Below, one piece after another: positions 1-64,000 of a stretch of 64,000 nucleotides of DNA. The notes beneath the pieces are model-generated. The model made no database searches. It worked only from the letters and a program-made list of their open reading frames with translations, and had not been told where the DNA came from. Both the position numbers and the translations under genes were made by a program. The DNA is from a virus (taxonomy: Duplodnaviria; Caudoviricetes), in IMG/VR virus record IMGVR_UViG_3300005614_000001, positions 32,001 through 96,000 of that record; one strand, written 5' to 3'. The number at the start of each line of letters is the position of its first letter. Positions within the stretch are counted from its first letter, which is position 1.

Positions 1-1033
1 TATATACAGCATCTCCATCTGCTGCTCCAGCTACGGTTAAAGTCAGGTCTGAAGAAGCATTTGAAGAGGTACTTGGAAAATCAAGAGCCCCAGTAACCAC
101 TAAAGGCAGTGCAGCAGTTTCCACTCTATGGGTAGTAGAGTTTACTACTAATGCACTATCCCCGCCAGATGTGTATGGTTGAGCTTGATATAGATATAAA
201 TTTCCTTTACTTGAGAATTTAGTAAAAATATTTCCTAAAGTATCCTGGAACTGTAAAAGATCTCCAAACTGACTCACCCCTTTTCTTATTACTAAAGTGG
301 TAGTAGAAAGGGTGTCATTTGCATTTGCAGATAGCAGAACAGTATTTTTCTGTGCTATTGCCACCCACTGCCCAATGTAGAATATACCCCACCTTTGGTT
401 AGTAGCTGCATTAAATGCTTCTACAATATTAATAGTGTGAATTTGATTATTATAAGTACTTATTTGTGTACATGCTATATCATTAGTCTTTACTCCCCCT
501 GTATTTAAAGTCCCTGTCTGATCAGTTACTTGCAAATGATTAAATTCATAAAATATCTTCCCGCCTCTAAGATTTATAAAAGGAGTATTATCAGGGGAGG
601 TGAGATTAGCATTAGTCCCCAAAGTTATATAACTATTCTGTGTAGTATCCGGGGAATAATAACCTCCTTTATTCTTTACTCCTGTAAATATCCAGGGTTG
701 TGTGGTGTCTGCTGCAAATTTATTAGAAGTAAGGGTAAGGTTATACCCTGCAGTGTAAGTATTATTGTTAGTAACTTTTGTATAATGCTTTCCATCAAAA
801 GAAAGGTATAAACTACTATCCTGTGTACAATACATAGCTGCCCCTACAAATCCTGATACTATAGTATCTGTACTATGTTTTATCGGAAATGCAAAAATAC
901 TATCAACCCTTATTCTTGTAAACCAGTTCCCATAGTTACCTGCTTTATAATATACCTGGGCTTTACTATTATTTATAACAGAAAAGGTTATTAAAAAAGC
1001 AAGAACTAATTTTACATATATACTTTTAATCAT
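1..1033 (-). CDS. Tail-fibre/vertex-like protein with N-terminal signal peptide (3'-partial, runs off window)
   Basis: Absent from the ORF track. Manual translation from ATG at 1033 is open to base 1 (344 codons): MIKSIYVKLVLAFLITFSVINNSKAQVYY...LDFPSTSSNASSDLTLTVAGAADGDAVY. Thr/Asn/Gly-rich, beta-type composition. Confidence 0.75.
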   Translation of the reverse strand, partial: MIKSIYVKLVLAFLITFSVINNSKAQVYYKAGNYGNWFTRIRVDSIFAFPIKHSTDTIVSGFVGAAMYCTQDSSLYLSFDGKHYTKVTNNNTYTAGYNLTLTSNKFAADTTQPWIFTGVKNKGGYYSPDTTQNSYITLGTNANLTSPDNTPFINLRGGKIFYEFNHLQVTDQTGTLNTGGVKTNDIACTQISTYNNQIHTINIVEAFNAATNQRWGIFYIGQWVAIAQKNTVLLSANANDTLSTTTLVIRKGVSQFGDLLQFQDTLGNIFTKFSSKGNLYLYQAQPYTSGGDSALVVNSTTHRVETAALPLVVTGALDFPSTSSNASSDLTLTVAGAADGDAVY

Positions 1034-1789: not shown

Positions 1790-4700
1790 TTAATGTGCTC
1801 TATTTTGTGTAGTGAACTTAATATTCATCTCTTTTGCAAAATCAGGAGATGCAAGGGCAGCATAGTTAATTAACTGATTTCCCAAAGGGAAGGATTTTAT
1901 CACATATTTCAACGGGTGAGCATTTGCTACCATTTTTTCTCCTTTAGTGGTATTCCCAAGTTCTTCTTCGGTAAGTCCAAAAGCATATCTCCCTAAATTA
2001 GAGAGTACATTTTCTGCATCAGTAACCACTCCAAATGCCGGGAGGATACTACCTCCAGCTACTTGCTGCCACTGCCAAGGATGATAATAAAAGGCCATTT
2101 CGTCTGATATTTTATCCAGCATCCTAACTCCATATATCCAATACCCTCTTTCTTCTTTAGTAGCTTCATCTGCATCCGGAATGAGGGCTTTTGCTGCCAG
2201 GAATGTAGAAAGTACCCCAATATAAGCTAATATATCCCTCATCTGTCCTCTTACATTATCCCTCATCAGATCATAGAAGTCATCTTTAGATATAGTGAGC
2301 TCCTTCCCGGTTTCTCTAAGGTATTGTTCTTTCTTCTTAGCCATAAATTCTTCCATCATCTTCAATCCTTGTTCATTACCAGCCATGATGTTTTTCATAT
2401 TCCCAATAATACGAAGAGGGTTTTGTACTAATATTTTCCCCACCATCCTCACCTTTCCATATTCATAGCTATCTGTACCAGGGATATACTTAAGACTTCC
2501 AAACCTGCTATCTGCTATAGGGACTATCCAGTTTTTAAAGGTCATCATCATCCTTGCCATAGTTCTCATAGAAGCTCTGCTCCTATCATCATCACTCATG
2601 GCACCAGTAGATTGCTTTTCTATCTGTTGTATTAACCCTCTGAGCTTCCCCATTTCCTTCCCATAAAGGTCCAGTCCATCTATCACCAGTTTATCATCTA
2701 CTATTTTAGCAAGTTTTGGGAGAGATTTTGTAGCCTTCAGGTCATCTATCTCTTTTTCCATTTTTTCTTCCAGCTCTCTATTTTGCCCAGGGGTACCGAA
2801 ATATCTTTGCCCTTCATACTTAGCCCTCACATACTGCCTGGTATTTTCTATCTTTCCATCTATAAGGACTGCATTATCCAACATGGCTATAGCTATGGGC
2901 TCCTGTACTAACTTATCACTATAACGGAATATAGAATATACAGCTTCACTCATGGAAGCATTTGCCACTTTAGATACAGATAGTTCTTTCTTTCTATCAG
3001 CAGCAGTTTGCTCTACAAATGGGACTATCTGGTTTAGAAGATAGGCATATACATTACCTTCTTTTCCTCTGAACATCCTGGTATCAGTCATTGCTTCTGC
3101 TTTCCTGAGATCTGCACCATCAAAGAAGGTTCTTTTATTTGTATAGTTCTGCAGCTTACCACCAATAAGGTTAGATAGTGGGATACCAATATTTAAAGCA
3201 AGGATCTTATTCTTATAAAACTGACTCACTCCTTCCAATAATCCATTTGCTGTAACTACTCTATCCTTCACATTTTCCGGGAGAAGTTGTGTACCCAGGG
3301 TCTTATTTATTGCTTTAAATACATTTTCAGTTCTCTCTCCAATTTTTCCTATAGTTTTCCCTTCCAGGATGTCATTTACATTCCTCTGCCCATAATATAT
3401 TCCCTGTACAAACTCATCCAGCATTTTAGCATTATATTCATTCTCGGGGGAGGTTTGTACCACACCATCCTTCCTCACTATCTTTCCAAACCTATTGGCC
3501 TGTATAGAAGATTTATTATGCTCTACATACTGCAGGGTTTTTACCAGATTCTCTATTCCAATTAGAGATTCATATCTTATAAGCTGTTCATTATAAGACT
3601 GTATTACAGAGAATAGATTAGTAGAGAATTGACTATCATCTTCTATTCCTCTATTGGAAGTAAAACTAAACGGGAGATGGTTTATCAATTTCCCGGTAAG
3701 GGGATCCTGGTATTGATAAGTATTTTCATTATCATTTATACTTATACCATTTATGAACCCATCTGCAATTTTTAAATTCCCCCCAAATGCTAATTTTTCA
3801 GCTACTCCACTTTTCATAACATATGGAAGAAAAGATCTCCTCACCTGTGGCTGAAGTATTCCAAGACTTACTCCTTTATCTACCCTCTCCTGGATATAGT
3901 TGTAGAAATCCAGTACTGGCTTATTCTCAGGGGATAAAAGCTGCTTATATTCATCAGTATGCCATTTATCTAAAGCAAATGATTTCATCTCATTATTTCC
4001 CCATCCAGGAGCCTTGTCATTAGAGAGATTGTATTTATCCTTTACTTTCTGTATTTCTTCATTTCTCCTCTTCTGGTTTTCTTCATCTACTGCATCATAG
4101 ATAGTGCTGTTTATAGCAGCTATTCTTTTTTGCTCTCTTTGGGCTATGTGTTCCCGGTATGCAGCAAGATTTATATTATCCTTATACCACTGGGTATTTT
4201 TATTCTCCTGGGCTTTTTTGAATTCTTTGAAAAAATCACTTTGTATAGTATCTATTCTTTGGTTTGTTTTCTCTCCCTTACTGTTCTTTTTGTACAGGAG
4301 GTCAAACATATTCTTTGGATTTAGCCCTCTGGCTTCACTCCATTTTAAATATTCTTCTCGGTGGTGAGCTACTATTTCCTTCTCTTTTTCCTTCAACAGC
4401 TCAGCCACCTGGAAGTTTGGATTGGTGAGTTTATATAAAGAATTAGCTGCAACAGTAGACCCTCTGCCCAATCCTCTAAACCAGTTCCCTATATTTTTAT
4501 TCTCTCTTTCTGCAGTTATAAGTCCACTTACTCCAAGTCTATCCCCAAGGAATTTATCAGCAAAATTGAATAAAGTATCATTCAAATCCTTTACAGCACT
4601 TCTTACATCTGAAGAAGTTACTTTCAAATCCTCCTGAACATCTTTATTTGTTGCTGCAGCATCTTTTAAGTGTACATCTATATCTTCATATGGAATATAC

Positions 4701-6664
4701 TTATCTAACAGATACAGGATCTTATGAGCATACAGGTTTAGACTTTCATCTGTTGGAGAAGTACTATCTACTCCTTCAAAAGTGTCTTTATAGGTATTCA
4801 CTATATCTTCTGCTTCTTTATTTAATATCTTTGCATAAGATAGTGTTGGAGAGATATTCTTCCTCACCTGAAGCTCTCTTATTGCCTTATATACAGATAG
4901 TAGTTGTTCTCTTTTCAGATGCTTTCTCCCTTCAGTTACCTTACTATCCTGGATATGACTATACAGGGCATTTAGTTTATCTATTTGCTTATCTATAGTC
5001 TCATCTCCTGTTCTTTCATCAACTGTTGGAACGGGGAGGAGATAGTCGTATTTCTCTAATGAAACATTTGCATCTCCGATCTTCACTCCATTTAAAGTAG
5101 CTTCTTTATCCTTAAAGGTAAAAGAGAACAGGATTGGGATAGCCCTTGTCATACCAAACTCCTTCACTCCATAAGCATCTTTTAATATCTTCTTATATTC
5201 TCCAATTTGTATATTGTAGGCTTCTTTCTTATAAGATGGAATGTCCTTATTCTTATTTATATCCAGGTTGACAAATTTCCAATCCAGGATATTAACCTTC
5301 CCATTAGGAGTGATAGCCATGAAATCTATAGTGCCAGCTTCATCTTTATTAGGATCATATACCGGAGTTTCTGTTAAAAATCTTGTACCTGCAGGAAAAG
5401 ACAGTAACCTTTGAGAAATGTTATCTTCTAACCCTTGATATATCCTTTCATCATTTGGAGAGAGTTGAGATACATCAGTTTTTTCTAATGGAGTGGTACG
5501 AAGAAAACCATTTTCATCTGTATACCTGGATATGATATCCTGTATATCAGCATGTCCTGCAGTACCTTTCTCTGCAAAGATATTAGCCTGACTACTCTGT
5601 TCTATATCACTTCCTGGAAATACCTTTCCATAATAAGCTTTTGCTTTATCAGTAACCCTATTCTTTACATCTACTCCATTTACCTGGTACTTCTTTCCGG
5701 TTTGGTCATAAGTTATCTTATTAGCCTGCTCCAGGATAGATTTATATACCCTTGTTTGTTCCGGGGAAAGATCTTCCTTTTCCTGCAGGGAATAAAAGCT
5801 ATCTCCTCCTCCATTTAAATCATCTACACTCCCTTCAAACCTATTATCCAATACTTGTTCTGCTACTTCTGTAAATGGATCAAACTTTCCTTTAATAAAT
5901 AAATTACGGAAGAACTCTTTTACTTTATCCCACCATGAGTCAGCTTTTGCAAGGAGTTCAGGGTTTTCTGTACCCCATTCATTCTTTTCAATAATGCGCT
6001 CTACCAGGAGTTTAGTCATAGCCTCCTCCTTTAACTTTATCACATCCAGGGTTCCATCTTCATTCCTGTAGGCTTTACCGTAAGTATCTACTGTAGATTT
6101 ATATATCTGATAACCCCCAATTTTATTTAACATCTCCTTATATAAAGGAGAGTTCTTATCTTTTAGAATTTGCACAGCTATATGCATCACTTCTTCAGCT
6201 TTAGCTATACTTTCTTTCCCTTCAGCTATATAAGCTATCCCCTTCACTGTATCTGCCAATCCTATAATAGCATCTCCTATATTCTCCCTGGATAACTTAA
6301 CCCCATTTATTACTAATTGTGATAGTGGTTTTAAATCTATTCCAACTCTTTTAGCAAACTCATCTATTTTCTTTAAAGTATCTTTATTGGCTTCAGAAGA
6401 TGGAACTGCAGATTTCTTAGATAGATAAGTGCCAGGAAGAGTTATCATTCCTAAAGTAGGCTCTCCTATTTCATTGAGTTCCCCTTTAAAAGAAGATGAC
6501 GAAGTAACCCAATCTCCCATCTTTTGTATATACTCCGGGGACAGAAGTTGTTTATATAATCTATCTGCTTCTTCCTCATTATTAGTGAGGGAGAATAGTT
6601 CACTCCATGTTCTTGAAGTCTCCTGCTTTCCTGTGATGGGGCTATTTATTAATCTACATGCCAT
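1790..6664 (-). CDS. Giant ejection/cargo protein of the virion RNAP cluster, with a PD-(D/E)XK nuclease domain
   Basis: 1624 aa; GTAGH...E...AGTIDF...ILDWK...YNIQIGEY (RecB/Cas4-type motifs); degenerate zincin-like EEVMH; synteny with crAss-like RNAP cluster. Confidence 0.75.
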   Translation of the reverse strand: MACRLINSPITGKQETSRTWSELFSLTNNEEEADRLYKQLLSPEYIQKMGDWVTSSSSFKGELNEIGEPTLGMITLPGTYLSKKSAVPSSEANKDTLKKIDEFAKRVGIDLKPLSQLVINGVKLSRENIGDAIIGLADTVKGIAYIAEGKESIAKAEEVMHIAVQILKDKNSPLYKEMLNKIGGYQIYKSTVDTYGKAYRNEDGTLDVIKLKEEAMTKLLVERIIEKNEWGTENPELLAKADSWWDKVKEFFRNLFIKGKFDPFTEVAEQVLDNRFEGSVDDLNGGGDSFYSLQEKEDLSPEQTRVYKSILEQANKITYDQTGKKYQVNGVDVKNRVTDKAKAYYGKVFPGSDIEQSSQANIFAEKGTAGHADIQDIISRYTDENGFLRTTPLEKTDVSQLSPNDERIYQGLEDNISQRLLSFPAGTRFLTETPVYDPNKDEAGTIDFMAITPNGKVNILDWKFVNLDINKNKDIPSYKKEAYNIQIGEYKKILKDAYGVKEFGMTRAIPILFSFTFKDKEATLNGVKIGDANVSLEKYDYLLPVPTVDERTGDETIDKQIDKLNALYSHIQDSKVTEGRKHLKREQLLSVYKAIRELQVRKNISPTLSYAKILNKEAEDIVNTYKDTFEGVDSTSPTDESLNLYAHKILYLLDKYIPYEDIDVHLKDAAATNKDVQEDLKVTSSDVRSAVKDLNDTLFNFADKFLGDRLGVSGLITAERENKNIGNWFRGLGRGSTVAANSLYKLTNPNFQVAELLKEKEKEIVAHHREEYLKWSEARGLNPKNMFDLLYKKNSKGEKTNQRIDTIQSDFFKEFKKAQENKNTQWYKDNINLAAYREHIAQREQKRIAAINSTIYDAVDEENQKRRNEEIQKVKDKYNLSNDKAPGWGNNEMKSFALDKWHTDEYKQLLSPENKPVLDFYNYIQERVDKGVSLGILQPQVRRSFLPYVMKSGVAEKLAFGGNLKIADGFINGISINDNENTYQYQDPLTGKLINHLPFSFTSNRGIEDDSQFSTNLFSVIQSYNEQLIRYESLIGIENLVKTLQYVEHNKSSIQANRFGKIVRKDGVVQTSPENEYNAKMLDEFVQGIYYGQRNVNDILEGKTIGKIGERTENVFKAINKTLGTQLLPENVKDRVVTANGLLEGVSQFYKNKILALNIGIPLSNLIGGKLQNYTNKRTFFDGADLRKAEAMTDTRMFRGKEGNVYAYLLNQIVPFVEQTAADRKKELSVSKVANASMSEAVYSIFRYSDKLVQEPIAIAMLDNAVLIDGKIENTRQYVRAKYEGQRYFGTPGQNRELEEKMEKEIDDLKATKSLPKLAKIVDDKLVIDGLDLYGKEMGKLRGLIQQIEKQSTGAMSDDDRSRASMRTMARMMMTFKNWIVPIADSRFGSLKYIPGTDSYEYGKVRMVGKILVQNPLRIIGNMKNIMAGNEQGLKMMEEFMAKKKEQYLRETGKELTISKDDFYDLMRDNVRGQMRDILAYIGVLSTFLAAKALIPDADEATKEERGYWIYGVRMLDKISDEMAFYYHPWQWQQVAGGSILPAFGVVTDAENVLSNLGRYAFGLTEEELGNTTKGEKMVANAHPLKYVIKSFPLGNQLINYAALASPDFAKEMNIKFTTQNRAH

Positions 6665-6682
6665 TCTATGGATTGGTTTTCT

Positions 6683-9600
6683 TTAACAGTTTCCTTTAAC
6701 TAAGTTTAATGTCTTTTCTGCATTAGCAGATGTTATATTAGGTTTAAAAGTCTCAAAAGGAGCTCTCACTTTACTGGCTATTATTTCAGAAGTGTGAATA
6801 GCCCTTGGAAGATCTGAAGTTATTATCTGTGGAATATTAGTTCCCTTCAGTTCTTCCCCTACTTTTTGAGCTTGTTCTACTCCCTTCTTTGTAAGCTGTG
6901 TTTCTGAAGTTCGGAGTAGTCCCTTTACATTATCTTCTGTTTCTCCATGCCGGGCTACTAGTAAGATTCCATTATCACTTTTGTATTTAAACACATCTCC
7001 TGTATCTGTAGTGCCTGCAAGGTAGTAATTTATATCTATTTTATTATCATTTGTCTTCCCTTCTTTTATCCAGGAGTCAAGGATTTTAATAACAGAAGAA
7101 TGAGTTACTACCAGGGTATTATCTGGAGCAGTTTGTAACAACCCTCTAAAGGCATTAATTACCCTATCTTTAAATTCATTAAAGCTCTCTCCTCTATTCC
7201 CGCTATTCCCTTGTGGTTTTTCAGAAGAGTTTTTCACCAGATTATTCACAGTCTTTCTATCTGTACTTTCTGGCCTTCCTTCTAAATCTCCAATATCCCA
7301 TGCTTTAAAGTCCTGTGAAGGTTTTATGTAGCCTCCACTATTACTTTCTACCCTATCTCTGTTTACTATAGTTATTCCTTTAGCACTCCTGTAGGCATCC
7401 AGTATTTCCTGCTGAGGTATTTCCTGTATCTTCAGATACCCATTATCCAATACAGATTGTGAAGGAGTATCATAGAATTCCTGTGCCCTGCTTCCATCTC
7501 CCCATGCATTTACAGGAGTATAGATATAATAAGGAAAGTCTGCACTCCCTTCTTTCATCGGGGTACCACTTTCATCTTCCAGTCTTTGCAACAATATCTT
7601 CCCACCACTTACCCCATTATCTGCTTCTCTTTGATCTGCAAATAAGTTCATGGTAATAAACCTGGATGAAGAAGAGCCGGAAGCTGTATATAGTTTATAA
7701 GTATTGTTCCTTATATCGTTTACATTGTATTTTTCCCTCAACCCCTTCATCCATTCCGGATAGAGTCTTTTTTTACTTTCTCCCCTGTCATTAAAGTCTT
7801 CAGTTACATTTGGAACTATATCTGTATTACTCCAGCTATTTCTAAAAAACACCCCCAGGTCATTGAATGCAGATAAATTACTCATAGAGTCCATTTTATC
7901 TACTACTGGCTTTATTACTTTAGCATAATCTTCAGATGGGAGATATTTGAAGAATGATACTGGAGATGTACTTATTCCTGACTGTAAGAATGATAACCTT
8001 ACTAAATTGTAGTATAAATCCCTTGTTTGAGGATTATCCCTCAACTCCCTGAATGCCCCGGTATAGACATCTGAAGTAATGGCATCTGATACCTTAGAGG
8101 CGATAGTTACTCCCTTAGCTGCAGAGTTTTTATTCTTCAGAAGTGGAATAAGTTGCTGTAATACAGTATTGTTATACAGATCACTTCCTTTTGGGAGGCT
8201 ATTCTTTAAAGCAGCAAGTTCTGTAGCCACTGCAGTAGACTGGTCTACCATAAGCTCCTTCACTCTATTATTCAACCTGGAAGAGGTTTGAATAGCATAA
8301 GTCATGAAGTGTTCTTCAGCAGTACGTGCAGCCTTTCTATAATCATCTTTAGATAACCCTCTGGTTTCCAATAAGTTATCTAATACCGGAGCAAGGTAAG
8401 ATTTTATTTCAGGGTTTTCTATAGCTATCAGGGACTCAGATATTGCCTTAGATGAACTAGCTACTAGGGATTGTAAATTCCCAAGATGTGATTTATCTAA
8501 TAGGGTATCTACTGTATTCCAGATATTTGCCTCCCTGGCCTTATCTGTCTTGTATTGTTTCCTGTATTGCATAACAGGATCTCCACTGCTATCTGTATCA
8601 TAGTTAGTGCCTTGAGTAATATCAAACAGGTTTTGGGACATTACTCCATACTTCAAAAACTCTGAAAGTATTTGCTGCTGCTGGGTGTTTTCTTCCTGGT
8701 TTAATACCCCACCGGAATAGAAAGTTTCTATATTACTTTTTAATACAATATTAGATACATTTAAAGCAGAGGTTATCTTTCTGCTTCCTTTGGGGAATAG
8801 TTGTCTGATAGCTTCTACATTTCTATTATCATATAACCATGTAGTATTCTTCTTAGCCAGGAGCTTCATATATTCCCTTATAATAGGCTGGTTCATGAAA
8901 TACACCACTGTACTTGTAGGAGTGCCAGCTTTCTCTAGCATCAGGAAGGTACCAGTGAGGGATGGAGATTGTATGATCTGAGCTATGAACGGGTCTTTAG
9001 CTACATCTACAAATCCATTTATGTATTGTGATATCTTATCAGATATATACCTACCATCAACATCTTTATTATTGGAGAGAGTTGCTACATCTCTTCCATC
9101 TATAGATATACTATTATGCGGGAGAGCTATTTTTCCATCTCCTATGTACTCCTGCTGGTATTTTGGGAGAGAAGATGCTTTATCAATATCTAAATATATC
9201 TCTCCAAGCTGGTTGAGGGAATTATTAGTTTGAGCTACTGCTGCTATCCCAACTCCACCTTTCCCCATAATAAATGTATGTCTTGTATTGGACATATATA
9301 ATCTATTCAGTGGGGATCTGTCATCACTGCTACCAAATTCTTCAGGGGCAAGTTTTACTAGGTTATCCCTTAAACTCATTAACTCCTTACTGTTATTTGC
9401 AGCTATAAGACGTTCATAGTTTTCCGGGAGAAGGATAAGATCTTCCAGGGAGTTGAAATATTCATTCTCCAGGGATTTACTATACATATCCTCCACCTGT
9501 TTATTTAGCTTTTCTTCCTCCTGCAGGAAATCAAAGTCTGCAAGGGCATCAAATGCCTTCACTGCTTCTCCCGGGAGGAGGTTATCTATTAACTCTTCCT

Positions 9601-12600
9601 TACTATTTAATCCATTCAGAAGGTCCTTAAATTTAGATTTAGCCTCTTCCCCTGTTCCAAAATAAGGAATTTCAGCTATTTCTCCATCATTTGTTATATA
9701 AATATTCTTTAAATAAGTATTTAGTTTATCCACATCAAAATCCGAACCAGCCTTAGTGGTAATAGCTTCAGGCACTACTATACTATCTCCGGTCCATGAT
9801 GGAGTAAATGCTTTTACTGTAAATGCTTCTACTGAGTTCAGTTCCTGTGTAGGGATACGAAAACCAACACCATTAAGTATTTTCTTCCCGCTATCTGTAC
9901 TATTCAGATGTTCTATTAGTTCATCATCTGAAAGCTTAGATAATTTGTTATTGCTGCTTTTAAGTTTCTTTGCAAACCAATTAGGGAGCATTACTTCCAT
10001 CCTGGATACGGAAGTTCTCTTACCACTTTCATCATAGGTAGCTTCATAAAACTTCAATCCATTAGAAACATATATCAGGTTTCCTTTACTATCTTTTCCT
10101 GCTTCTACCCTCTTTCCTTTTACTTCAAATCCTACTCCGGATAACTGTATTTTCTGTCCACCATTTACTTTTGGTTTAGCTATCAGTTTATCTATATAAG
10201 AGAATAAGATACTCTTTATCTGGTTATAGTTTATAGCTGCTTCAAATGGAATGAGGAAATTACCTTCTTCATCTAACTGAAGTATATCCTTTAGGTTTTG
10301 TGGAGCTTCTCTTCTAAAGAGTTCATCTTGTAAAATAGCAGCTACCTTTGTTTTATCCGGGATGGAAAAGCTTTCTCCATCATCTACTATTCCAAACTTA
10401 CTTAGCAATTTATCATACCCGTTATTCTGCAGGTTTTGTAAAGCATCTATGTTTCTCCTCACCTTATCTCCCATCTCTTCACTAATTGGAGTACCTGCAT
10501 TATACAGGTTTACATAAGCAAGTTTAGATAACTGGCTACCAAGAGTTCCTTTATCTTTCTCTGCTCCTGTTTCTACCTGTATCCCATAATACCTGAAGGG
10601 AATATTTAACTTTGCACTTTCCTTGAATGGAGCATCAGAATAGATATCATCTTTATTATCATTTCCCTCTATTATCCCAATCTTTCTCCCGGATTCCACT
10701 ATTGCATATCCTACCCCTTCTTTATGCATTTTTACATAGATGCTCTCCAGGTTAGTTCCCCTTACCCTGGCATAGGAAAGTGGTGCAACTGAGGTTTTAT
10801 CCAGGAAGGTATTTCCATCCATAGTAAATCCACTACCTATAGGTTTTAAGATCTGCATTACTGCAACTTTTGGATCACCTTTCTTTAGAAGATTAGTGTC
10901 ATGTTCCTTTAGTTCGGGAGAAGAATAGATATAATGTCCGTCTTCAGCCATCAGGTTTCTATCCTGGGCCATAAGATATTGAAACTGCTGTTCTTGCTGT
11001 GTACTCCACCTTGCCCCTGATTTCCACATAATTTCCCTGTAAGCTGGAAGAGGGGTCCATGATTGAGCATCTGCACCATTAGAAGCCTCATAAGGAGAAC
11101 GTAATTCTTCAGGGAGGTGTTTATCTCCAGTAATAGATTTCTCTTCAGAAAGGATATCTGATAGAGAAACAGTAGGGATATAATCCTTATGTTCCCAATA
11201 CCCAGGATCTGTAGGGGAGAGCTTAATATTCCCGGCTTTATTTAACTCTTCATTTAATTTATTATTGAATTCAGGAGTGTTGTATACAGAAGTCTCTCTT
11301 GGAGAGAGGAAGGATTTATATCTTTTTAAAGGGTCTTTGATTCCTCCATAATCCCCAAAGAACAGCTTATGCATTTCTACATTGTTTATCATGTAGTTCA
11401 CTTCTGTGAAAGTAAATAGCTTCCTTAGTTCATTTTCTGTAAGGAGTTTTCCTTCATATCCCTCTATTCCATTAAGCTTATATTTTGTTACTGTTTCCCC
11501 GGTAGCATTCTTGGTAGTTTGCTCTGTTATGACATCATTCTTCTTCAGATAATCTGTTAGGTTAGAAACTCTTGTTTCTATATAATCCTTTAGCTTATCT
11601 GTATTTAATTCCTCTTGACTATAACTGTCAGTTATATCTGCCAGTAGCCCATCATACTTCTTCCCCTCTGCTTTTGTTTTACTATCTGCTATAGACTTTT
11701 CTGTCACATAGTAAGAAGAGAATATATTATTTATTCTGTTCCAGGCAATAGATGTATCAAAAGCAGAGAGTTCTATTGGATGTTCCATTTTAAGCATCCA
11801 TTCAGTTTTGCTATCTGCCGGGACTAATATATAGTAGTTCTTATTTAAGTTTTGGTTTAGTTCAGTAACTACCCTGGTAAGAGGATCTACTTTAGAGAGA
11901 GGCTTTACATCTCCTGTCTTTACATCTGCTATACCATCTATATAAGAAATGTCCAGGGTTTTGTCATTCTTTTCTCCATTTTCATCAAATAGGTTTTTCA
12001 AATACCAGCTATCCTGTGAATAGAGAGATAATAGGTGAGGAGTGCTATTTAAGAGTTCATCTTTATCTACTGCACTATTTATATCATTGGTGATATTAGA
12101 GATAGTATTATTCTGCAGGTATTGTTGTACTCTCTCTCCACTTACATTTGTAAATGTGCTCTCCCATCCTTCCCCTTTTGCTTTAGTGTATAGTTCAGCC
12201 AGCTTTTGGAAATTACCCTTTTCTCCCAGGTTAGAAATGTCCACACTTCCCTTCCTACTTAAGAAAGTTCTGATACTTCCAATAGTAGAAGACAAACTAT
12301 CTTTGTCTTTTTTGGATAAGTTAGAGAGCATAAAGGAATCAAATTCTACCCCTAAAGCAGAAAGTAAGCCACTATCTGTCTTTGGTACTGCTGCTCCATT
12401 AAAGTTATAATTCCCTTCTTTATCTACATTTACTATCTTCCCAGGTCCTGCATTTACCTTTAAGTTATCTATCCAGCTTTGTGACAGTACCCTTGCAGCA
12501 GTATTTAAATTAGCAGGAGCAGAGTAGGTTTTATCTCCATCTTTATATTGGATAACGGCCTCTGGCCTTTGTTTACTAAAGGTATTTAGCCATGAGACAG

Positions 12601-15600
12601 CCATTTTCCAGTCACTGATAGATAGATCAGAAAGAGAGGTATTAAATTTAAGCCTGTTTATAAGACGTACATAATCTGGGTTAGTATTAGCTACTTCTTT
12701 TAAAGCATCTATTTTCTGCTCCAGGGAGTTATATTTAAATACCTGGGAAAGGGTATAGTTCATAGATTTTGACATCTGTAATGCTTTTTGCATATAGATA
12801 TCTGTATCTACTTTACTAATTACCCCTGAAGGAGAGGTTTTATCAAACAGGGTTTCTGTAAGGGTTGCATACAGCATCTTTACCCTTGCTGGTGCATTCT
12901 TCTTAAAATCAAAGGTGAGGTAGTTCTGCAGGTAAGAGTCTGCACTCTTTCCTCCATCATAATTGCTCTCCTCTCCTTCTTTATCCTGTGTACTTATTCC
13001 TTCAAATACCCCTTCAGGATTTTCAATTATTTCTGTCAACCCTTCATTAGATAGCTTTACTACTACTCCAAAGGTGTTTAGGTATTCATTTGTAAGCTCT
13101 ACTGCAGTTCCCCAGTTATTAGATATATTATCCCACAGTGTAGAATAAGCTTTATATTGAAATTCATTTATATCTCCTCTCCTGTACATTTCCGGGATAG
13201 AGTCTGCTATTTCCCCTGTAGAGGTAAATGCCTGCTTCAGCCCTGCATACACTTTCTGGTATATCTGCTTGGGATCATAATTCCCTTCTTCCAGATCTAC
13301 TATATTCTTATTTTCCCTAAATACCTGCTGGAGTATCTCTACTGCATTTCCCCGAACAAAATTATATGAATTGCTTACAGATAGCCCAGGAATGGTCCTG
13401 TAATCCACTTCTCCATTATAAGCACTCTTAATAGGAGAGGTTTTATAATACCCTGAATTTATCCTTTTAAATAAAGAGTCTATGGTGTTAACAGATGGAG
13501 AGAATAATCTTTGTACAAAGTTTACTATATCCCTGAACAGCCTTTGAATGAAATTACCTGCAGGTTTCTGGTTCTGCAGTACATAATCCCTGAATTCTTC
13601 AGCTAACTGTTCCACTGTTTGTTTACCGGAAGCAGAGTTATATGTAGTAACTGTCCCGGTCTCCCTATCTATAAAGCTTCCCTCTCTTTGCTTAAATTCA
13701 GAGAGAATGGATTGCTTTTCTTTTAGATCAGTGAACATACTCCATACAGCATGAAAAGCCTCATGGTAAGTAGTTCCGGTTTCTGCATTCTGAGATACAA
13801 ATACTATAGCATCTTTAAACTGTCCATATGCATATCCACTCCCTGTAGTAGCTATTAAATTTTTAACTCTCTGGAATGGGATAGATGAAGAGATGTTATC
13901 TTTAAACCACTTTTCTTCTTTATCAAGATCTGCAGTAATAACTCCATACTTTTCCTTCACTATTCTGTAGTCAGAAGTAAACCTGCCAGAATTTGGGAGA
14001 GATGCTCCAACTTTAGTTTCCTTTGGAAGTTCTTTTTCTACTTTAGCTTCTTGTTCTACAGTCTGCTCTATCTTTGGGAGCTTTGAAGCAACTATGGACC
14101 TAAGTGTATCTAAAGCTTCTTCATCAGTTTTACCAAGACTCTTAAGATTAGTAACCAACCCATCTAAAGCTTCAGATTGAGGGAAGGCTATCAACCATCC
14201 TTCAGGGGTATTTTCAGCAGTATATTTTAACTCCCCAAACTTACTTGGGAATGTTTTTACTTCATTTATTACTTGTGTTTCAGGTACTCCGGGTACTTTA
14301 ATACCTGGTACAGAAGGTGATGGTGTACTTTCTTTACTTTGTACTTTTGGTTCTATTTCCTTTGGAGAGAATATAGTAGCCCCTTCCTGGTTAGTGGTGA
14401 GTACTGCTGATTTATAATAAAAGTTAGTATCTAAAGGGTTAGTTTTACTTACCTCTCTTATAGATGTAGTAAGTGGAATACTGTTTACATTCCTTGCAGT
14501 GCCTTTTAATTCTGAAGGATCATCTTCTAATAGATCATGGGTATCCGATATAAGAAAGTGCTGGTATGACTTCCAGGAGATAGTTTTTAACTTATCTCCA
14601 TCTACTCCAATTATCTCTTCAAATGGAAGACCATCTACCAGTTTCTTATTATTGATATTCTGGAAGGTATCCTTAAGATAATCTTTTATTTTCTGCTGGT
14701 TCTCTTCTATTCCCTTAGCAGAGAATGGAACTCCTTCAGTTCTATTTCCAAAATACAAAAACCCATCTTTTAAGTATACCTGATTAGAGCTGGTAGGTTT
14801 ACCTTGCTGAGGTTGGGTGAAATACAGCACTCCCTGCAGGTAGTTTTCTATCTGAGGGTCTATTTCTCCCTTATTCTGCTCACTCCGTACAGCCAGAAGA
14901 TGCAGATTATCATACAAATTATCCACTTCATGGGAAGAGAATTTTCTATTGTTTAACCATTGTAAAGTACTTCCATACTGTAATACTGGTCTGCCATTTG
15001 GAAAAGATATATTCTCTCCCTGGTGAGTGATAAAACCCTTTGTAACTACCTGTACTACTCCTTTCTTCCCTATATCTTTTTTATCAATAATAGATTTAGA
15101 TACAGGGGTTTGATAGAAGTTTCCTTCACTATCCTTACCATTATATTCTCCCCTTCCTCTCGTTACATAGAAAGAGTAGACATTATCTCCATCTCCGTGT
15201 TCCAGGATTTGGTTTCTCCTTTCTTCCCAGGCTTTACTATAAGCTACTGCTTCTTCCGGAGTACCTTGAGAATACCTTGTTTCATTTGGGGAAGTTCTCC
15301 AGGAGAGGTCTGCTGTAGGCATTACTCCATACACAGCATTTTCTATATTGGTTTGTTCGCCAACCCTTCCAATTCTCTTTCCATCTACTCCTACAAAATG
15401 GTTTTCTCCTCCAGTAGAGTCGATAAATACAGTAGCTATGATAGTAGATTTATCTCCATCAAATCCTTTTGCTACATCATCTATCAATCCCTTCAACCCT
15501 AAAGACTCTTCAGTCTTTTGAGTTACCAGGATGACCCTTATATTATCTTTATTCCCTATACTATTCAGTGCTGAGAAGAACTTCTGTTGTCTTTGTGTAT

Positions 15601-18600
15601 AGGGTTTATCATCCTTTCTATTATAAGTAGTGGATTTAAATAGAATAGGGAGGGGTTTCTTTTGAGTTTCAAAAGCCTTATCTGCAGGAGCTTCTTCATG
15701 TACATTATTTTCCCCTGTAGGAAATGAAGATGCGCTCTTGGAAGAAAGCTCCTTTAGGCTATCCTCCAGCTTTTTATTAAAGTCTGTCCTTTGTTTTACT
15801 ATCTCTGCTTCTGATAGAACAGGAGAGTAACTATCTAACACTCCAGGTTCTACTTCCTGAATGTTACCTGTAGCATCTTCTACCCTTATTTTTCCACTAT
15901 CTGTTTTTTCAAGTATTTTTAACTTAGAGAGTTTTTCAGCTTGTATGTTCTGATAGTCTTTTTGCTTATCAGCTTCACCCTTATCTGTAAAAGTTTCGAT
16001 AACATTCCCTGTAGGGGAAATAAGATTATATTTATCTCCATCTTGCTGTACTTTATATTCTCCCGGTGTTTCTGTTATATATTCTCTGTTTAATTCAAAT
16101 GGTTTACCATTTACTTCAACTGTCGGAGCAGTAGTATTATCAGTTTCTTTATTTTTTGTACTATCCGTATTATCTTCCCCAATAGAGAGAGAATTTCTCC
16201 ATTCATTGTAGTTCTTTACAAAGTCCTCATATCCTTCCTGGGTAAATAAATGATCAAAAGCTGCAGAAGCATATTTCTTTCCTTTATTTATCTGGTTAAT
16301 ATCATAACCCTTTTGTATAAGGTCTACTGTATGTTCTTTAGGAAAGGATATACTATCTAAGGTTCTTTGTTCTTCCGGAGTGCGGTTATTTAATTCAAAG
16401 TCTAAAAGGGATGGAAATAGCTTAGTATATTCTGCACTTTTGAAATCTGCAGACTTAGTGATGGAAGCTATCTTTTCAGAAAGAGTATTAAGGGTATTTA
16501 TCTGCTGCTGGGCTTTTATCCTATCATCTCCACTCACTAACTTTTCATCTATCTGCTTCTGCAGGTCTTCTGATTTATCTTTATATACTTCTCTTAAGTT
16601 ATTGAGCCCTGTAGGAGAGGTTAGTTTAGCTATTAATTCATTAGTGATGGCAGGGTGTATCTTAGTAATACCCCCTTGTATTTCCTGCAGCCTGTTATTA
16701 AAATCCTTCCCGTTATAAGATAACTTTACAAGAGATGATTTATAATCTTCAAATATATTGTATGCTTCATTACTCCTCGCCTGGTCTTCAGTTTTTGCAT
16801 TCCCAAAGTACTGGTAAGGATTTTGAAATATATTAGAAATGGCATCATGAGCATCTTTTATACTCTGTGCTTTCTGTATTAAAGCATCTATATACTGATG
16901 ATTGCTTGTTCTATCCCAATCCTTTATCCCAAATAAAGTATTGATTTCTGATTCCGGGAGTTCTTTTAAAAGTTTTAATTGTTCCAACCTTACTTCAAAC
17001 CTATTAGCTTTTATCCCACTATCTACAAAGTTAAAGAACTGGTCCTTCTGTAAATTCTTGAATTTAAATATATCATTATTTTTTACAGCATCAGCTATAT
17101 CAGTTTTAGCCTGTAGGGTAGACGCAGTAGCATCATAGTTATTTTCCATAACTCCCAGTACCCCTCTTGAGTTGAGGGAATTTACAGCATGGGCAGCAGC
17201 CTGTTCTGGGGTAAATACTCCAGCCCTTGCTTTCTGTATACTTTCTACCTTATGCTCTATAGGTCCAAATAATACCCCCGTTAGTCCACCAAGGAGCATA
17301 TTTTCATACCCCTCCTGAGTACCAAATTGCCCTATTAATCCCTGTCCTGTAGCCTGTATAATAGCATCTAAATCTCCTTTGGTCTTCTTGTTATATTTAT
17401 CTTCATAGTAATTCTGAGTACCAACCTGGGCAGCATACTGTCCACCTTCTTCATATACACCTTCTGCTAATATATTAGGAATGGCAGGTTTTACATACTT
17501 CTGAAATCTTGTTTCAGGGGTGAGTTTAAGTTTATCTATATCTGCTGCTGTTGATATTTTATCTGCTGCCAGTCCAATAGTACCAGCCTGTTCTTCTGTT
17601 GCTGCCTCTACTCCTGATTTAAGGCTTTGTTTAAAAGAGTTCCATGGTTTTAATATATGCTCAAACTGAATAGCATTGGATGCCATCAGAAGTGCCATAT
17701 TCACCCCATACCGAACATTACCAGAAGCTGTTGCAATTTTATCAATGTCTTCAAGGTCCTTCCCTGTAGGATTGTAACCGTTTTTTTCATAATAGCTTTG
17801 TATTAGGTCTTTTTTAACCTGCTCATATCCCTGCCTTGCTTCCATCCCTGCTTCAGCATGAGAGGCACCCCAAAGAGTAGAAAGGTATTCAGCACCCCTC
17901 CCTATTTTCTGCCCTGCAGCAATAGCAGAGAGTTGCTTCATAGAAGCTATAGACTGAGTAGATTGTTCTATTTCTGAAGTAGCCGCAAGAACTTTTTCCA
18001 GGTCATTTGTTCCTGTAAATGCTTTATTAAGCCATAGAGCTGCCTTCCCTACTTGTTCAGAGATGAGGGGAGCTTCTCCTATACCTTCACTTATTGCTCC
18101 TATAGTAACATCTGTGAGGGCAGCACTTCCTATTGCACCTATTGTAAAACCTGTATTCTTTAGTACCTTATCACTCCAGAAGTTTGCAGCACCACCAGAG
18201 AATGGAATAGCACTCAAAAATGGATGATCCTGTTCCCACTTGGTGTAATAGTTAGGGAATTTATCCTCCAGGTTTGTCTGCCAGTTATCTAAAGACTGTT
18301 CCCATGAGTTCTTATATACATTACCTCCGGACAATCCTCTTATAGTATCCGGGATAGCCAATAATCCATCAGCAAAAGCAGATACAGCTATAGCCCCTGT
18401 TTTAACAAGAGCATTACCAAATTTACTCCATGCAGATTGGTTTTTTGCAAAGTTCTCTTCATTGTCTACAAATGGATTAAAGTTATCTCCATATCTCCTT
18501 GTTTGATTCTCTGCAGTATATATTGGTTCATCTGCTGCATCCAACCCTGATTTATCCGGGATAGATGCCAGTATATCAGATGCCTTCATAGTGCGAAGAT

Positions 18601-51400: not shown

Positions 51401-51621
51401 ATTCTTTTTATGAACCCTGTATTTTTATTCTCAAGATCCATATGTATATTCCAATGATTGGTATGCCAGTATAACCATCCATCTATGTACACTCCATTTA
51501 CAAAGAATCCATTTTCTATTTTGTCTATTTCATTCTGAAAAAAGGCATCATACTCCTCTGACTTTTCATCAGGGATGGATTTCATATTTATAAAGAACTC
51601 TTGTGTAGTTGTAAAGTCCAA
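48430..51621 (-). CDS. terL: Terminase large subunit containing an intein (679-aa extein)
   Basis: YWHTNHW, RDNEW, GSRRFSKS, IIDEIGK (Walker B), GTGG, AGVDPY (RNase H Asp), NFDR. Confidence 0.92.
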   Translation of the reverse strand: MDFTTTQEFFINMKSIPDEKSEEYDAFFQNEIDKIENGFFVNGVYIDGWLYWHTNHWNIHMDLENKNTGFIKRILGKPLLRDNEWQLAEYRLKARREKKGLCAVGSRRFSKSEIESSIIGRAATILEGSESIISAGNDKDLKLIADKIDKGLNNVHPYFKWGRIENDWKRQVTLGIKDKSGNRIPWSTILPRNLDDGKNTEAVAGVTATEFIIDEIGKFLFLRCLEAAIPAFTSPYGWRCSPLLVGTGGAFEKGSDAEKIFYNPEAYNFLAVEFGEEKKKYGLFLPGSYRMEAKVDCKLGEWLKEEKQIDIPEESELYNLNFQKSDLEKAKKIIDEERKTAKDANDQEAYLKAVMYYPYTPDECFLTASFNIFNTQAALAQKGRIFANGRTGIPVLLAHDGEKIIFEHTDALPVGSFPTKPNDNKNAPIVIYEMPMQNPPFGLYVAGVDPYRQGKSEYSDSLGAVYIYKRMHDIAGDKFQDMFVASYVARPDSKDTWHEQARLLIKFYNARTLCENDEISFIDYMKAKGDARYLERQPEWLKEVVPHSQVTREYGVHRSSQKIIDHLNNCLKRYLDQVIYQEKDEEGSIIKEVTGVTRVLDAMLLEEIIKFNDTGNFDRCFTKGAKVLCIDGYKCIENLKIGDRVLTHTGKYKNVTDIFNSVSKKDKYIIKPLGIEEFTCTENHPLLISEIKKGNGKNYFKNFTIGDLKWKEAKDINKNDYLLIPFRKDLKKCNLNWRYLYILGWYLSDGHKHKNTVRITFQGNQLHIAEYIKSLLEEVDDFSPITYSSYNHLKKDNIICKSKRKLPRIYKVKDKFAYNLEFNCTTFNNIINENISIKVGGEKIIKDPLFNSKGLLPLILGFLEGDGHQKSTKAPGSINFRETIEVSGIYTHLIKQIRRLMFDEGIWCSGNINKQKNPNSKEQYRLDIQNIEGINKILNSIPGSSKKFKNLKERSQRKNYRVIDEGIIIPIKSIDVYSSSEEVYNIEVEEDHSYTVNDIVSHNCVAASLAIAMADHLAPMGKVTTLETDPRFKYYFNKEKKQGARNLFASGFNLFTQKKNKLF
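48613..49764 (-). mobile_element. 384-aa intein with LAGLIDADG homing endonuclease
   Basis: Starts CFTKGAKV (C1); CTENHP block B; LGWYLSDG and LGFLEGDG; ends VYNIEVEEDHSYTVNDIVSHN/C; AT-richer than flanks. Confidence 0.95.
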
Positions 51622-55938: not shown

Positions 55939-56078
55939 TTTATTTTTTATTTTCTAATTTTTTTTCCAATTTTTAAAATCTTTTATATGGCTTTTAGAAT
56001 ACCTCTATTGAAGGTGGGCTTAAATTAAAACAGCCGCAGATTAGCGGCTGTAAATGTTTTAGTCGTCGGCGGCTAAAG

Positions 56079-63934: not shown

Positions 63935-64000
63935 CTAAAAACTAATAATTATATGAAACATACTATAAAAAATGACTTAAAGAAAGCGGATACAGGATGT

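What the first reader, a model, noticed from the sequence alone, without database searches (positions are those of the whole stretch)
6740..7330. Circularly permuted histidine phosphatase fused to the C-terminus of the virion RNA polymerase protein
Seen: motif order is WDIGDLEG - GESF..F..RV - LVVTHSSVI, then RHGET..N - LT.KG..QA - TSDL.RA..T. Known: the canonical His-phosphatase (PGM-like) order starts with RHG and ends with the second His, so the two halves are swapped. The R, H, R and H catalytic residues are intact; the usual proton-donor Glu position reads Ala. Inference: an enzyme injected with the RNAP that could dephosphorylate host defence proteins, nucleotide signals or RNA/DNA ends at the start of infection, possibly released by the zincin protease.
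Basis: partly seen in the sequence, partly recalled or inferred. Interest (0 to 1): 0.8.

Follow-up and report, generated by a model that had tools for sequence, protein, structure and literature searches.

The report
Circularly permuted phage histidine phosphatase module
The last ~190 residues of this phage's 4019-residue virion RNA polymerase protein are a complete histidine phosphatase whose two halves are in swapped order; this rewired form is a large family found in giant phage proteins, I found no paper describing it, and its target is unknown.

Summary
In the 4019-aa ORF (window 6683-18742, minus strand), aa 3806-3895 match His_Phos_1 profile positions 71-159. Aa 3927-3998 match positions 1-73.

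The host protein is a crAss-type virion RNA polymerase: it matches phi14:2 gp66 at E 1.4e-19, with the DFDxD motifs aligned. The record is a complete 116.9-kb virus genome with terminal repeats, so misassembly is unlikely.

This is not a one-off. 129 of the 152 best protein clusters in a 1.84-billion-protein library carry the same swapped order in one colinear match. Most are giant phage proteins, and the module sits at N-terminal, internal or C-terminal positions.

AlphaFold gives one compact domain (pLDDT 89, pTM 0.83). Its helices and strands are an exact cyclic rotation of those of a normal-order relative. The join is a hairpin from strand 5 into the RHG strand.

Arg, His, Arg and His are near-invariant. 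The usual Glu is Thr or Ala family-wide and also in the nearest normal-order relatives, so that loss predates the permutation.

The substrate is unknown. Earlier reports of this scan noted the same family in five other genomes. I found no paper describing it.

The parts
6683..18742 (-). 4019-aa giant ORF (stop included): N-terminal region, HExxH block, crAss-type virion RNAP region, C-terminal permuted phosphatase
   Evidence: ORF list, translation, Pfam and PDB sequence matches.
13751..13765 (-). HEAFH motif (aa 1660-1664), a candidate zincin-like metallopeptidase site
   Evidence: Motif position. The block 'YHEAxH ... LAEDF' is conserved in 6 of 7 homologous giant proteins. No Pfam family matched, so this is motif-level evidence only.
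8867..11095 (-). Region homologous to the phi14:2 gp66 virion RNA polymerase (aa 2550-3292)
   Evidence: phmmer against PDB: 6VR4 chain A, E 1.4e-19, query 2550-3292 against chain 951-1672.
9728..9742 (-). DFDVD catalytic motif of the RNAP (aa 3001-3005)
   Evidence: 'TKAGSDFDVDKL' aligns with gp66 'TKTGSDFDIDKM'.
6767..7327 (-). Whole permuted histidine phosphatase module (aa 3806-3992)
   Evidence: Colinear HMMER matches of query residues ~12-198 in 129 clusters. AF2 core pLDDT is above 90.
6977..7327 (-). First half, equal to the canonical C-terminal half (strand 3, helices, GES..R, strand 4 with T-H3881-S-S, strand 5)
   Evidence: His_Phos_1 profile positions 71-159, E 1.2e-12. VIA-align places model 5..~165 on chain ~65..205 of 16 histidine phosphatases.
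6767..6976 (-). Second half, equal to the canonical N-terminal half (strand 1 with R3931-H3932-G, LTxKG helix, strand 2, S-x-L-x-R3980-A helix)
   Evidence: His_Phos_1 profile positions 1-73, E 2.1e-17. Model 131..201 superposes on residues 1..72 of SixA-type chains at rmsd 1.8-2.9 A.
7301..7303 (-). Codon of Ala3814, at the position of the canonical general-acid Glu
   Evidence: Alignment to PhoE. This family column is Thr in 107 of 130 and Ala in 17. Normal-order relatives read LRTWDxG.
6686..6766 (-). 27-residue C-terminal tail, poorly conserved, modelled at low confidence
   Evidence: pLDDT 52-62 for model residues 201-225. These family columns are mostly gaps.
6665..6685 (-). TAA stop plus 18-nt spacer. 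The next ORF is in the same reading frame.
   Evidence: Sequence read. Frame arithmetic: (18742-6664) is divisible by 3.
1790..6664 (-). Next gene, 1624 aa, unannotated. Its homologues in other phages carry the permuted module at their own N-terminus.
   Evidence: BLASTP to P0142 (E 1e-124), P0051 (E 1e-47), and P0031, P0005, P0022, P0096, P0026, P0007 and P0023.

Best explanation
Window 6767-7327 (minus strand) encodes one complete branch-1 histidine phosphatase (PGM-like) domain in circularly permuted order.

**How it is rewired**
- The chain starts at canonical strand 3.
- It runs through the GES..R helix, strand 4 (with the second His, H3881) and strand 5.
- It then turns through a two-residue hairpin straight into canonical strand 1 (R3931-H3932-G).
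- It ends after the helix that carries R3980.

**Likely chemistry (inferred)**
- It most likely uses ordinary histidine-phosphatase chemistry. H3932 would take the phosphate as a phospho-histidine intermediate. R3931, R3980, H3881 and N3938 would hold the phosphate.
- The usual Glu general acid is absent (Thr or Ala family-wide). This suggests either a substrate with a good leaving group or a relocated acid; D3816 and D3937 are candidates.

**What it belongs to**
- It is one copy of a self-contained module of about 187 residues that has been shuffled among giant phage proteins.

**Delivery (inferred from phi14:2 gp66)**
- Here the module is the C-terminal end of the crAss-type virion RNA polymerase protein. 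It would then be packaged in the capsid and enter the host with the DNA, before any phage gene is expressed.

**Target (not shown)**
- My ranking: phosphorylated nucleotide or other small molecule ~45%; phospho-protein (His~P, Asp~P or Ser/Thr-P) ~25%; nucleic-acid 3'/5' ends ~15%; other or none ~15%.
For: - **Permutation:** each half matches the complementary part of His_Phos_1 and of PhoE/CobC chains.
- **One domain:** the AF2 model has pLDDT 89.1 and pTM 0.83, with the junction blocks at pLDDT 97-98.
- **Same elements, rotated:** the element order (strand 3, two long helices, strand 4, helix, short helix, strand 5 | strand 1, short helix, helix, strand 2, helix) is an exact cyclic rotation of the model of the normal-order relative P0101. 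Element lengths are nearly identical.
- **Fold assignment:** the top 16 VIA-align hits are all histidine phosphatases, aligned half by half.
- **Family:** 346 clusters match at E<1e-10. 129 of the top 152 are colinear with the permuted order.
- **Conservation among 130 copies:** R3931 129, H3932 130, R3980 130, H3881 126, R3944 128, N3938 123.
- **Glu loss is older than the permutation:**
- **Host protein is a vRNAP:**
- **Genome is sound:** complete, with terminal repeats, and a phage structural block around the gene.
- **Viral bias:** the RHGETEDN-coding pattern hit the permuted form in 9 of 12 IMG/VR loci and in 0 of 120 prokaryote-genome loci.
- **Hints towards nucleotides:** the best-scoring curated families are CobC-type ribazole-5'-phosphate phosphatases, below cut-off. 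Two normal-order relatives are fused to NUDIX.
Against: - No activity or substrate has been measured.
- The tools do not give model coordinates. The distances between the four catalytic residues were therefore not measured, and the single active site rests on AF2 confidence and topology.
- VIA-align Z scores are only 5.3-6.7, as expected for half-domain sequential alignments but not decisive alone.
- Without the canonical Glu the enzyme could be slow or specialised.
- Virion packaging and injection are inferred from a homologue about 24% identical.
- The nucleotide-substrate hints are weak: all curated families score below cut-off, and the NUDIX fusion occurs in only two relatives.
Confidence: 0.75

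Rival explanations
1. The module is a phospho-protein phosphatase. It would remove phosphate from phospho-histidine or phospho-aspartate (two-component, phosphorelay or PTS proteins) or from Ser/Thr-phosphates made by host defence kinases, and so blunt host signalling at the moment of injection.
For: - The RHG half superposes best on SixA-type phosphohistidine phosphatases (rmsd 1.8-2.9 A over 66-68 residues).
- Loss of the general-acid Glu fits labile P-N or acyl-phosphate substrates (inference).
- Relatives co-occur with Kinase-PolyVal (Ser/Thr/Tyr kinase) in 3 of 25 scanned proteins.
Against: - SixA TIGR00249 scores 27 bits against a cut-off of 74.5.
- The domain keeps the full C-terminal half that SixA lacks.
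- The best sequence scores go to small-molecule phosphatases (CobC, PhoE).
Confidence: 0.25
2. The module serves nucleic-acid chemistry. It would remove 3'- or 5'-phosphates from RNA or DNA ends, either to help the fused RNA polymerase start or to heal host-inflicted breaks, possibly together with a kinase.
For: - The module is fused with the vRNAP in 14 of the top clusters, in either order.
- In P0004 it lies directly before a Zeta-toxin/AAA_33 P-loop kinase, a layout like kinase-phosphatase end-healing enzymes.
Against: - Most copies lie in proteins that showed no BLAST similarity to this protein's RNAP region.
- A Walker A motif lies within 395 aa in only 3 of 103 downstream and 3 of 100 upstream flanks.
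- To my knowledge no branch-1 histidine phosphatase is an established polynucleotide end-healing enzyme.
Confidence: 0.15
3. The domain is a catalytically dead binding or structural module that has merely kept histidine-phosphatase motifs.
For: - The canonical general-acid Glu is missing.
- No function is known for any family member.
Against: - The nucleophile His is invariant (130 of 130). Both Arg and the second His are kept in 126-130 of 130 copies that share only 31-51% identity. That pattern is expected under selection for catalysis.
- The Glu is also absent in free-standing normal-order relatives.
Confidence: 0.07
4. The swapped order is an artefact: a misassembly, a frameshift, or two decayed tandem copies rather than one domain.
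For: None found. Permutation by tandem duplication followed by loss of the outer halves is the likely evolutionary route, and P0039 carries several partial RHG halves.
Against: - The ORF is continuous over 12 kb in a complete virus record with terminal repeats.
- The same order and the same boundaries recur in 129 independent clusters from several data sources.
- The total size is that of one domain (~187 aa), and AF2 folds it as one.
Confidence: 0.02

Closest known systems
Branch-1 histidine phosphatases of the PhoE / CobC (alpha-ribazole-5'-phosphate phosphatase) / iPSP1 group (PDB 1H2E, 1EBB, 6E4B, 6NRU, 3HJG, 4IJ5); Pfam PF00300
   Same: - Same motifs: RHGxT..N, LT.xG..QA, S.L.RA..T, G.xEG, GES...R, (V)THS.
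- Same set of helices and strands.
- Best sequence matches (E 1e-10) and best structural matches.
   Different: - The chain order is cyclically rotated. It starts at strand 3 and ends after the helix following strand 2, with a strand-5-to-strand-1 hairpin as the new join.
- The general-acid Glu is replaced by Thr or Ala.
- There is an extra near-invariant Arg (R3944) and an Asp before the phosphate-binding Asn.
- The edge strand that follows strand 5 in canonical enzymes (from my knowledge of the fold) is absent from both models.
- It sits inside giant phage proteins rather than being a ~200-aa metabolic enzyme.
Normal-order 'LRTWDxG' relatives found here (P0101, P0107, P0140, P0150, P0145; NUDIX-fused P0036 and P0060)
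   Same: - 31-41% identical to each half.
- Same Thr at the Glu site.
- Same end of the fold at strand 5.
   Different: - They keep the canonical order.
- Foldseek finds 307 PDB matches for the P0101 model (best E 1e-13, TM 0.70-0.75) and none at E<=0.001 for the permuted model.
Virion RNA polymerase gp66 of Cellulophaga phage phi14:2 (PDB 6VR4) and the gp65-gp66-gp67 polyproteins of crAss-like phages (bioRxiv 10.1101/2020.03.07.982082)
   Same: - The host protein shares the RNAP core and the DFDxD site.
- It has an HExxH block upstream, as in the gp65 zincin.
[quoted passage not shown]
   Different: - gp66 has 2194 residues in the PDB entry. The only region of P0002 that matched it is aa 2550-3292, so the phosphatase did not match it.
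- The preprint text does not contain the word 'phosphatase'.
Polyvalent proteins of phages and conjugative elements (Iyer, Burroughs, Anand, de Souza, Aravind 2017, PMC5512222)
   Same: - Giant multi-enzyme proteins thought to be delivered with the DNA and cut by a zincin-like peptidase.
- Relatives of this module sit beside Kinase-PolyVal, ddrB-ParB, Zeta toxin, PD-(D/E)XK and GNAT domains.
   Different: - The main text of that paper contains neither 'phosphatase', 'PGM', 'phosphoglycerate mutase' nor 'permut'. This module is therefore not named under any of these words in the paper's main text.
- Its supplements were not available.

Membership tests
Histidine phosphatase superfamily, branch 1 (Pfam PF00300 His_Phos_1) | Sequence match above Pfam's gathering score | tested here: met
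   106.9 bits against a cut-off of 21.7, E 1.4e-30, in two stretches. Each half alone also passes, at 48.3 and 63.9 bits.
Histidine phosphatase superfamily, branch 1 (Pfam PF00300 His_Phos_1) | RHG motif with the nucleophilic His, a second Arg and a second His | tested here: met
   R3931-H3932-G3933, R3980 and H3881 are present. They are kept in 129, 130, 130 and 126 of 130 family copies.
Histidine phosphatase superfamily, branch 1 (Pfam PF00300 His_Phos_1) | General-acid Glu after strand 3 (E83 of PhoE, E89 of dPGM) | tested here: not met
   Ala3814 aligns with that Glu. The family column is Thr in 107, Ala in 17 and Ser in 2. The nearest normal-order relatives also lack it.
Histidine phosphatase superfamily, branch 1 (Pfam PF00300 His_Phos_1) | Canonical chain order (RHG strand first, second His near the C-terminus) | tested here: not met
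   Profile positions 71-159 come before positions 1-73. The AF2 element order is a cyclic rotation of that of P0101.
Histidine phosphatase superfamily, branch 1 (Pfam PF00300 His_Phos_1) | Alpha/beta/alpha fold that brings the four catalytic residues into one pocket | tested here: inconclusive
   The model is one compact domain (pLDDT 89, pTM 0.83). The top 16 VIA-align hits are all family members, aligned half by half at Z 5.3-6.7. Coordinates are not exposed, so residue distances were not measured.
Histidine phosphatase superfamily, branch 1 (Pfam PF00300 His_Phos_1) | Phosphatase or mutase activity through a phospho-histidine intermediate | not testable with these tools
   Needs enzyme assays.
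CobC alpha-ribazole phosphatase (NCBIfam TIGR03162) | Score above the equivalog cut-off | tested here: not met
   76.8 bits against a cut-off of 162.9. This is the best-scoring curated family but far below membership.
SixA phosphohistidine phosphatase (NCBIfam TIGR00249) | Score above the equivalog cut-off | tested here: not met
   27.3 bits against a cut-off of 74.5. Only the RHG half superposes on SixA chains.
crAss-like phage virion RNA polymerase (phi14:2 gp66 type); applies to the host protein | Homology to gp66, with the DFDxD catalytic loop aligned | tested here: met
   6VR4, E 1.4e-19 over aa 2550-3292. SDFDVDK aligns to SDFDIDK.
crAss-like phage virion RNA polymerase (phi14:2 gp66 type); applies to the host protein | Present in the virion and ejected into the host | not testable with these tools
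   Inferred from phi14:2 and from the gene's place in the structural gene block.
Polyvalent proteins (Iyer et al. 2017) | Several unrelated enzymatic domains in one giant phage polypeptide | tested here: met
   RNAP core plus histidine phosphatase plus an HExxH block in 4019 aa.
Polyvalent proteins (Iyer et al. 2017) | Zincin-like metallopeptidase domain that processes the polypeptide | tested here: inconclusive
   HEAFH at aa 1660 lies in a block conserved in 6 of 7 homologues. No Pfam family matched at E<=0.01 or E<=1.

The most novel reading that the evidence does not exclude
The permuted histidine phosphatase is a widespread, virion-delivered counter-defence or host-takeover enzyme. It would be pre-loaded in the capsids of crAss-like and other large phages and would destroy a phosphorylated host signal within seconds of injection. 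Candidate signals are an immune or alarmone nucleotide, or a phospho-relay intermediate. To my knowledge it would be the first histidine phosphatase shown to have such a role, and the first natural circular permutant of this fold.
Probability: 0.3. Interest if true: 0.8.

Novelty: new variant of a known kind. Interest (0 to 1): 0.6.

Why it matters
The histidine phosphatase (PGM-like) fold is one of the best-studied enzyme folds. I found no description of a natural circular permutant of it in the held literature.

The permuted form is a large family: 346 clusters at E<1e-10. It appears confined to giant phage proteins known from metagenomes.
- It is absent from 50,697 GenBank phage records.
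- It has no colinear match in the PDB or BFVD.
- It was absent from a (pattern-limited) sample of prokaryote genomes.

The permutation hides the fold from Foldseek, so structure-based annotation pipelines will miss it.

Because the module rides on virion cargo proteins such as the crAss-type RNA polymerase, it is a candidate for an enzyme that acts in the host before any phage gene is expressed. The family-wide loss of the general-acid Glu points to unusual substrate chemistry. The domain is small and self-contained, and free-standing copies of 190-270 aa exist, so activity and structure are directly testable.

Tried and rejected
**Searches that found nothing**
- Foldseek of the permuted model against the PDB gave nothing at E<=0.001.
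- Against BFVD it gave only one weak, non-colinear hit. A control with the normal-order relative gave 307 PDB hits, so the miss is caused by the permutation and not by model quality.
- megablast of the ORF against GenBank phages found no match.
- tblastn of the module against GenBank phages found only three partial RHG-half matches.
- Literature: no paper holds 'circularly permuted' with 'histidine phosphatase', or 'crAssphage' with 'histidine phosphatase'. Five papers hold 'circular permutation' with 'phosphoglycerate mutase'. Their titles are unrelated, and in the one I read (PMC6957218) the two terms occur in unconnected passages.
- The main text of the polyvalent-protein paper has no phosphatase term, and its supplements were not held.

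- The search for related loci with alignment A1 failed because no stretch was conserved enough. With the single protein it gave only 3 weak loci.

**Ideas tested and dropped**
- A ParB-like domain as the usual upstream neighbour: only P0040 of 100 upstream flanks matched.
- A P-loop kinase as the usual neighbour: a Walker A motif occurs in 3 of 103 downstream and 3 of 100 upstream flanks.
- Read-through of the stop between the vRNAP ORF and the next ORF: the stop is TAA and the window has no tRNA genes, so nothing supports it.

**Unresolved**
- A single origin of the permutation. In a tree of re-ordered halves the normal-order sequences form two pure clades (support 0.92 and 1.0). They are not separated from all permuted ones by one split.
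Full report
**1.

The window carries a 4019-aa ORF on the minus strand (6683-18742).

Each half was scanned against Pfam on its own:
- aa ~3806-3895 match His_Phos_1 profile positions 71-159 of 194 (E 1.2e-12);
- aa 3927-3998 match positions 1-73 (E 2.1e-17).

The two matches are complementary and reversed, which is the signature of a circular permutation. Solved PhoE and CobC chains give the same picture: query 133-196 against chain 4-68, and query 19-101 against chain 81-164. In that alignment Ala3814 faces the Glu of PhoE's 'REIHLGDWEG'.

**2. The setting**

The window is part of an IMG/VR virus record of 116,928 bp. It has direct terminal repeats and is rated 100% complete.

- Portal, large terminase, major head protein and virion structural proteins lie on the same strand.
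- The portal is only 25-29% identical to those of crAss-like phages and a Leptolyngbya phage. This is therefore a distant crAss-type phage.
- The giant ORF matches the virion RNA polymerase gp66 of phage phi14:2 (PDB 6VR4) at E 1.4e-19 over aa 2550-3292.
- 'TKAGSDFDVDKL' aligns with gp66 'TKTGSDFDIDKM'.
- An HEAFH motif at aa 1660 lies in a block conserved in 6 of 7 homologous giant proteins. No Pfam family matched it, so 'zincin' stays at motif level.
- The phi14:2 preprint states that gp65 (zincin), gp66 (RNAP) and gp67 are virion proteins and are fused into one polyprotein in some phages.

**3. The domain is not a one-off**

A full HMMER search of 1.84 billion representative proteins gave 4272 hits at E<=0.001, 346 at E<=1e-10 and 41 at E<=1e-30.

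- Of the 152 best hits, 129 match query residues ~12-198 in one colinear stretch. They therefore carry the same permuted order with the same boundaries.
- Position in the host protein: 80 internal, 19 N-terminal, 14 C-terminal, and 16 in proteins under 400 aa.
- Fourteen share the RNAP region with this protein, with the module before or after it.
- Pfam or PHROG domains found in relatives include Kinase-PolyVal, ddrB-ParB, ParB, Zeta toxin, PD-(D/E)XK, GNAT and NUDIX.
- About 50 clusters share unannotated flanks on both sides.
- In IMG/VR, 9 of 12 loci holding the RHGETEDN-coding pattern carry the permuted module in large ORFs. Three of them show vRNAP homology.
- In GTDB prokaryote genomes, 0 of 120 such loci do.
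- GenBank phages hold no permuted copy.

**4. Structure**

AlphaFold2, run with 24 short family members as the alignment, gave pLDDT 89.1 and pTM 0.83. The core is above 90, and only the first ~10 and last ~25 residues are weak.

- Element order in the permuted model: strand 12-15, helices 31-44 and 60-77, strand 83-86 (THS), helix 88-99, short helix 110-115, strand 123-128, then strand 131-137 (RHG), short helix 142-146, helix 158-170, strand 179-182, helix 185-198.
- Element order in the normal-order relative P0101 (pLDDT 92.2): strand 17-23 (RHG), short helix, helix 45-58, strand 65-69, helix 72-85, strand 89-93, helices 109-122 and 134-151, strand 157-161, helix 163-174, short helix, strand 198-203, end.

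The two lists are the same elements, with almost the same lengths, rotated by one cut. The cut lies in the loop between the R3980 helix and strand 3.

The new join is a two-residue hairpin from strand 5 into strand 1. From my knowledge of the fold (SCOP: sheet order 324156, strand 5 antiparallel), strands 5 and 1 are antiparallel neighbours, so the join needs no rearrangement. The normal-order relatives P0101 and P0107 end right after strand 5, which makes that step short.

Structure searches:
- VIA-align against 48,161 PDB representatives put 16 histidine phosphatases on top (Z 5.3-6.7). Model 5..~165 aligned to chain ~65..205. Model 131..201 aligned to residues 1..72 of SixA-type chains at rmsd 1.8-2.9 A.
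- Foldseek found nothing for the permuted model but 307 PDB matches for the normal-order relative (best E 1e-13, TM 0.70-0.75).
- Coordinates are not exposed, so I could not measure the catalytic geometry. The single active site is a confident prediction, not a measurement.

**5. Catalytic residues**

Counts among 130 permuted copies:

| Residue | Kept in |
|---|---|
| H3932 | 130 |
| R3980 | 130 |
| R3931 | 129 |
| R3944 | 128 |
| R3860 | 127 |
| H3881 | 126 |
| N3938 | 123 |
| E3852 | 121 |
| D3937 | 119 |

- The Glu position is Thr in 107 copies and Ala in 17.
- D3816, two residues on, is Asp in 94, Asn in 20 and Glu in 8.
- The nearest normal-order relatives also read LRTW(D/N)xG. The Glu was therefore lost before the permutation, and this protein's Ala is a minority variant of Thr.
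- No curated NCBIfam family is reached. The best is CobC at 76.8 bits against a cut-off of 162.9.

**6. A local detail**

- The next gene (1790-6664, 1624 aa, unannotated) is homologous to proteins that carry the module at their own N-terminus in other phages. The best are P0142 (E 1e-124) and P0051 (E 1e-47), plus seven more.
- The order RNAP - phosphatase - this protein is thus kept, while the ORF boundary moves.
- Here the two ORFs are in the same frame, separated by one TAA and six codons.
- There is no sign of read-through: the stop is TAA and the window has no tRNA genes.

**7. Mechanism**

- Shown: a permuted but complete branch-1 histidine phosphatase domain, under strong conservation of its catalytic set, fused to a crAss-type vRNAP, and a member of a mobile phage module family.
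- Inferred: catalysis through phospho-H3932; packaging and injection with the RNAP; action at the very start of infection.
- Unknown: the substrate.
- I rank a nucleotide or other small phospho-ester first (~45%). The reasons are the CobC/PhoE-like sequence, the NUDIX-fused relatives, and the fact that the module works in many contexts. Phospho-protein follows at ~25%, nucleic-acid ends at ~15%, and other or none at ~15%.
- Release by the zincin was not tested.

**8. Novelty**

- The held literature gave no paper on a permuted histidine phosphatase.
- The polyvalent-protein paper does not name a phosphatase in its main text.
- The phi14:2 preprint does not contain the word 'phosphatase'.
- Earlier reports of this scan described the same permuted family in five other genomes. 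I reached the same family-level result independently before reading them.
- New here: the evidence that the Glu loss predates the permutation, the strand-5-to-strand-1 join, the Foldseek control, the IMG/VR versus GTDB contrast, and the boundary shift with the next gene.

Noticed in passing
window 6664-6685 and 1790-6664 (minus strand): The 1624-aa ORF after the vRNAP gene is in the same reading frame as the vRNAP ORF, separated only by TAA plus six codons. Its homologues in other phages carry the permuted phosphatase at their N-terminus. This looks like a moved ORF boundary inside an ancestral polyprotein.
   Followed up: partly
window 48430-51621 (minus strand): The large terminase ORF has 1063 aa. 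The terminase match covers residues 11-622. Residues ~616-725 match two PHROG families of unknown function, so there is an unexplained C-terminal extension.
   Followed up: no
L011:6532-7092 (IMG/VR contig IMGVR_UViG_2651869516_000092): A permuted module in this viral contig is interrupted by two in-frame TGA codons (L011 6943-6945 and 6832-6834). They fall where the family has Phe or Trp. This suggests that TGA is read as Trp in that phage.
   Followed up: partly
proteins P0039 and P0124 (relatives, not in the window): P0039 (1161 aa) holds four partial matches, including three extra RHG halves. In P0124 the two halves are about 200 residues apart. These are possible intermediates of, or insertions into, the permuted module.
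   Followed up: no
proteins P0133, P0130, P0153, P0114, P0143 (relatives, not in the window): Normal-order 'LRTWDxG' phosphatases of 497-692 aa share a C-terminal extension. It contains a conserved block (e.g. '...GMTRDAVAG...') that I think looks like a helix-turn-helix.
   Followed up: no
window ~56000-64000: GC skew and AT skew change sign at about 56 kb, and the listed ORFs of 150 aa or more switch from the minus to the plus strand. This is probably the border between the late/structural gene block and another gene block.
   Followed up: no
window 1790-6664, 18746-21292 and 21379-23352 (minus strand): Three large ORFs flanking the vRNAP gene (1624, 848 and 657 aa) have no Pfam or PHROG match at all.
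   Followed up: partly
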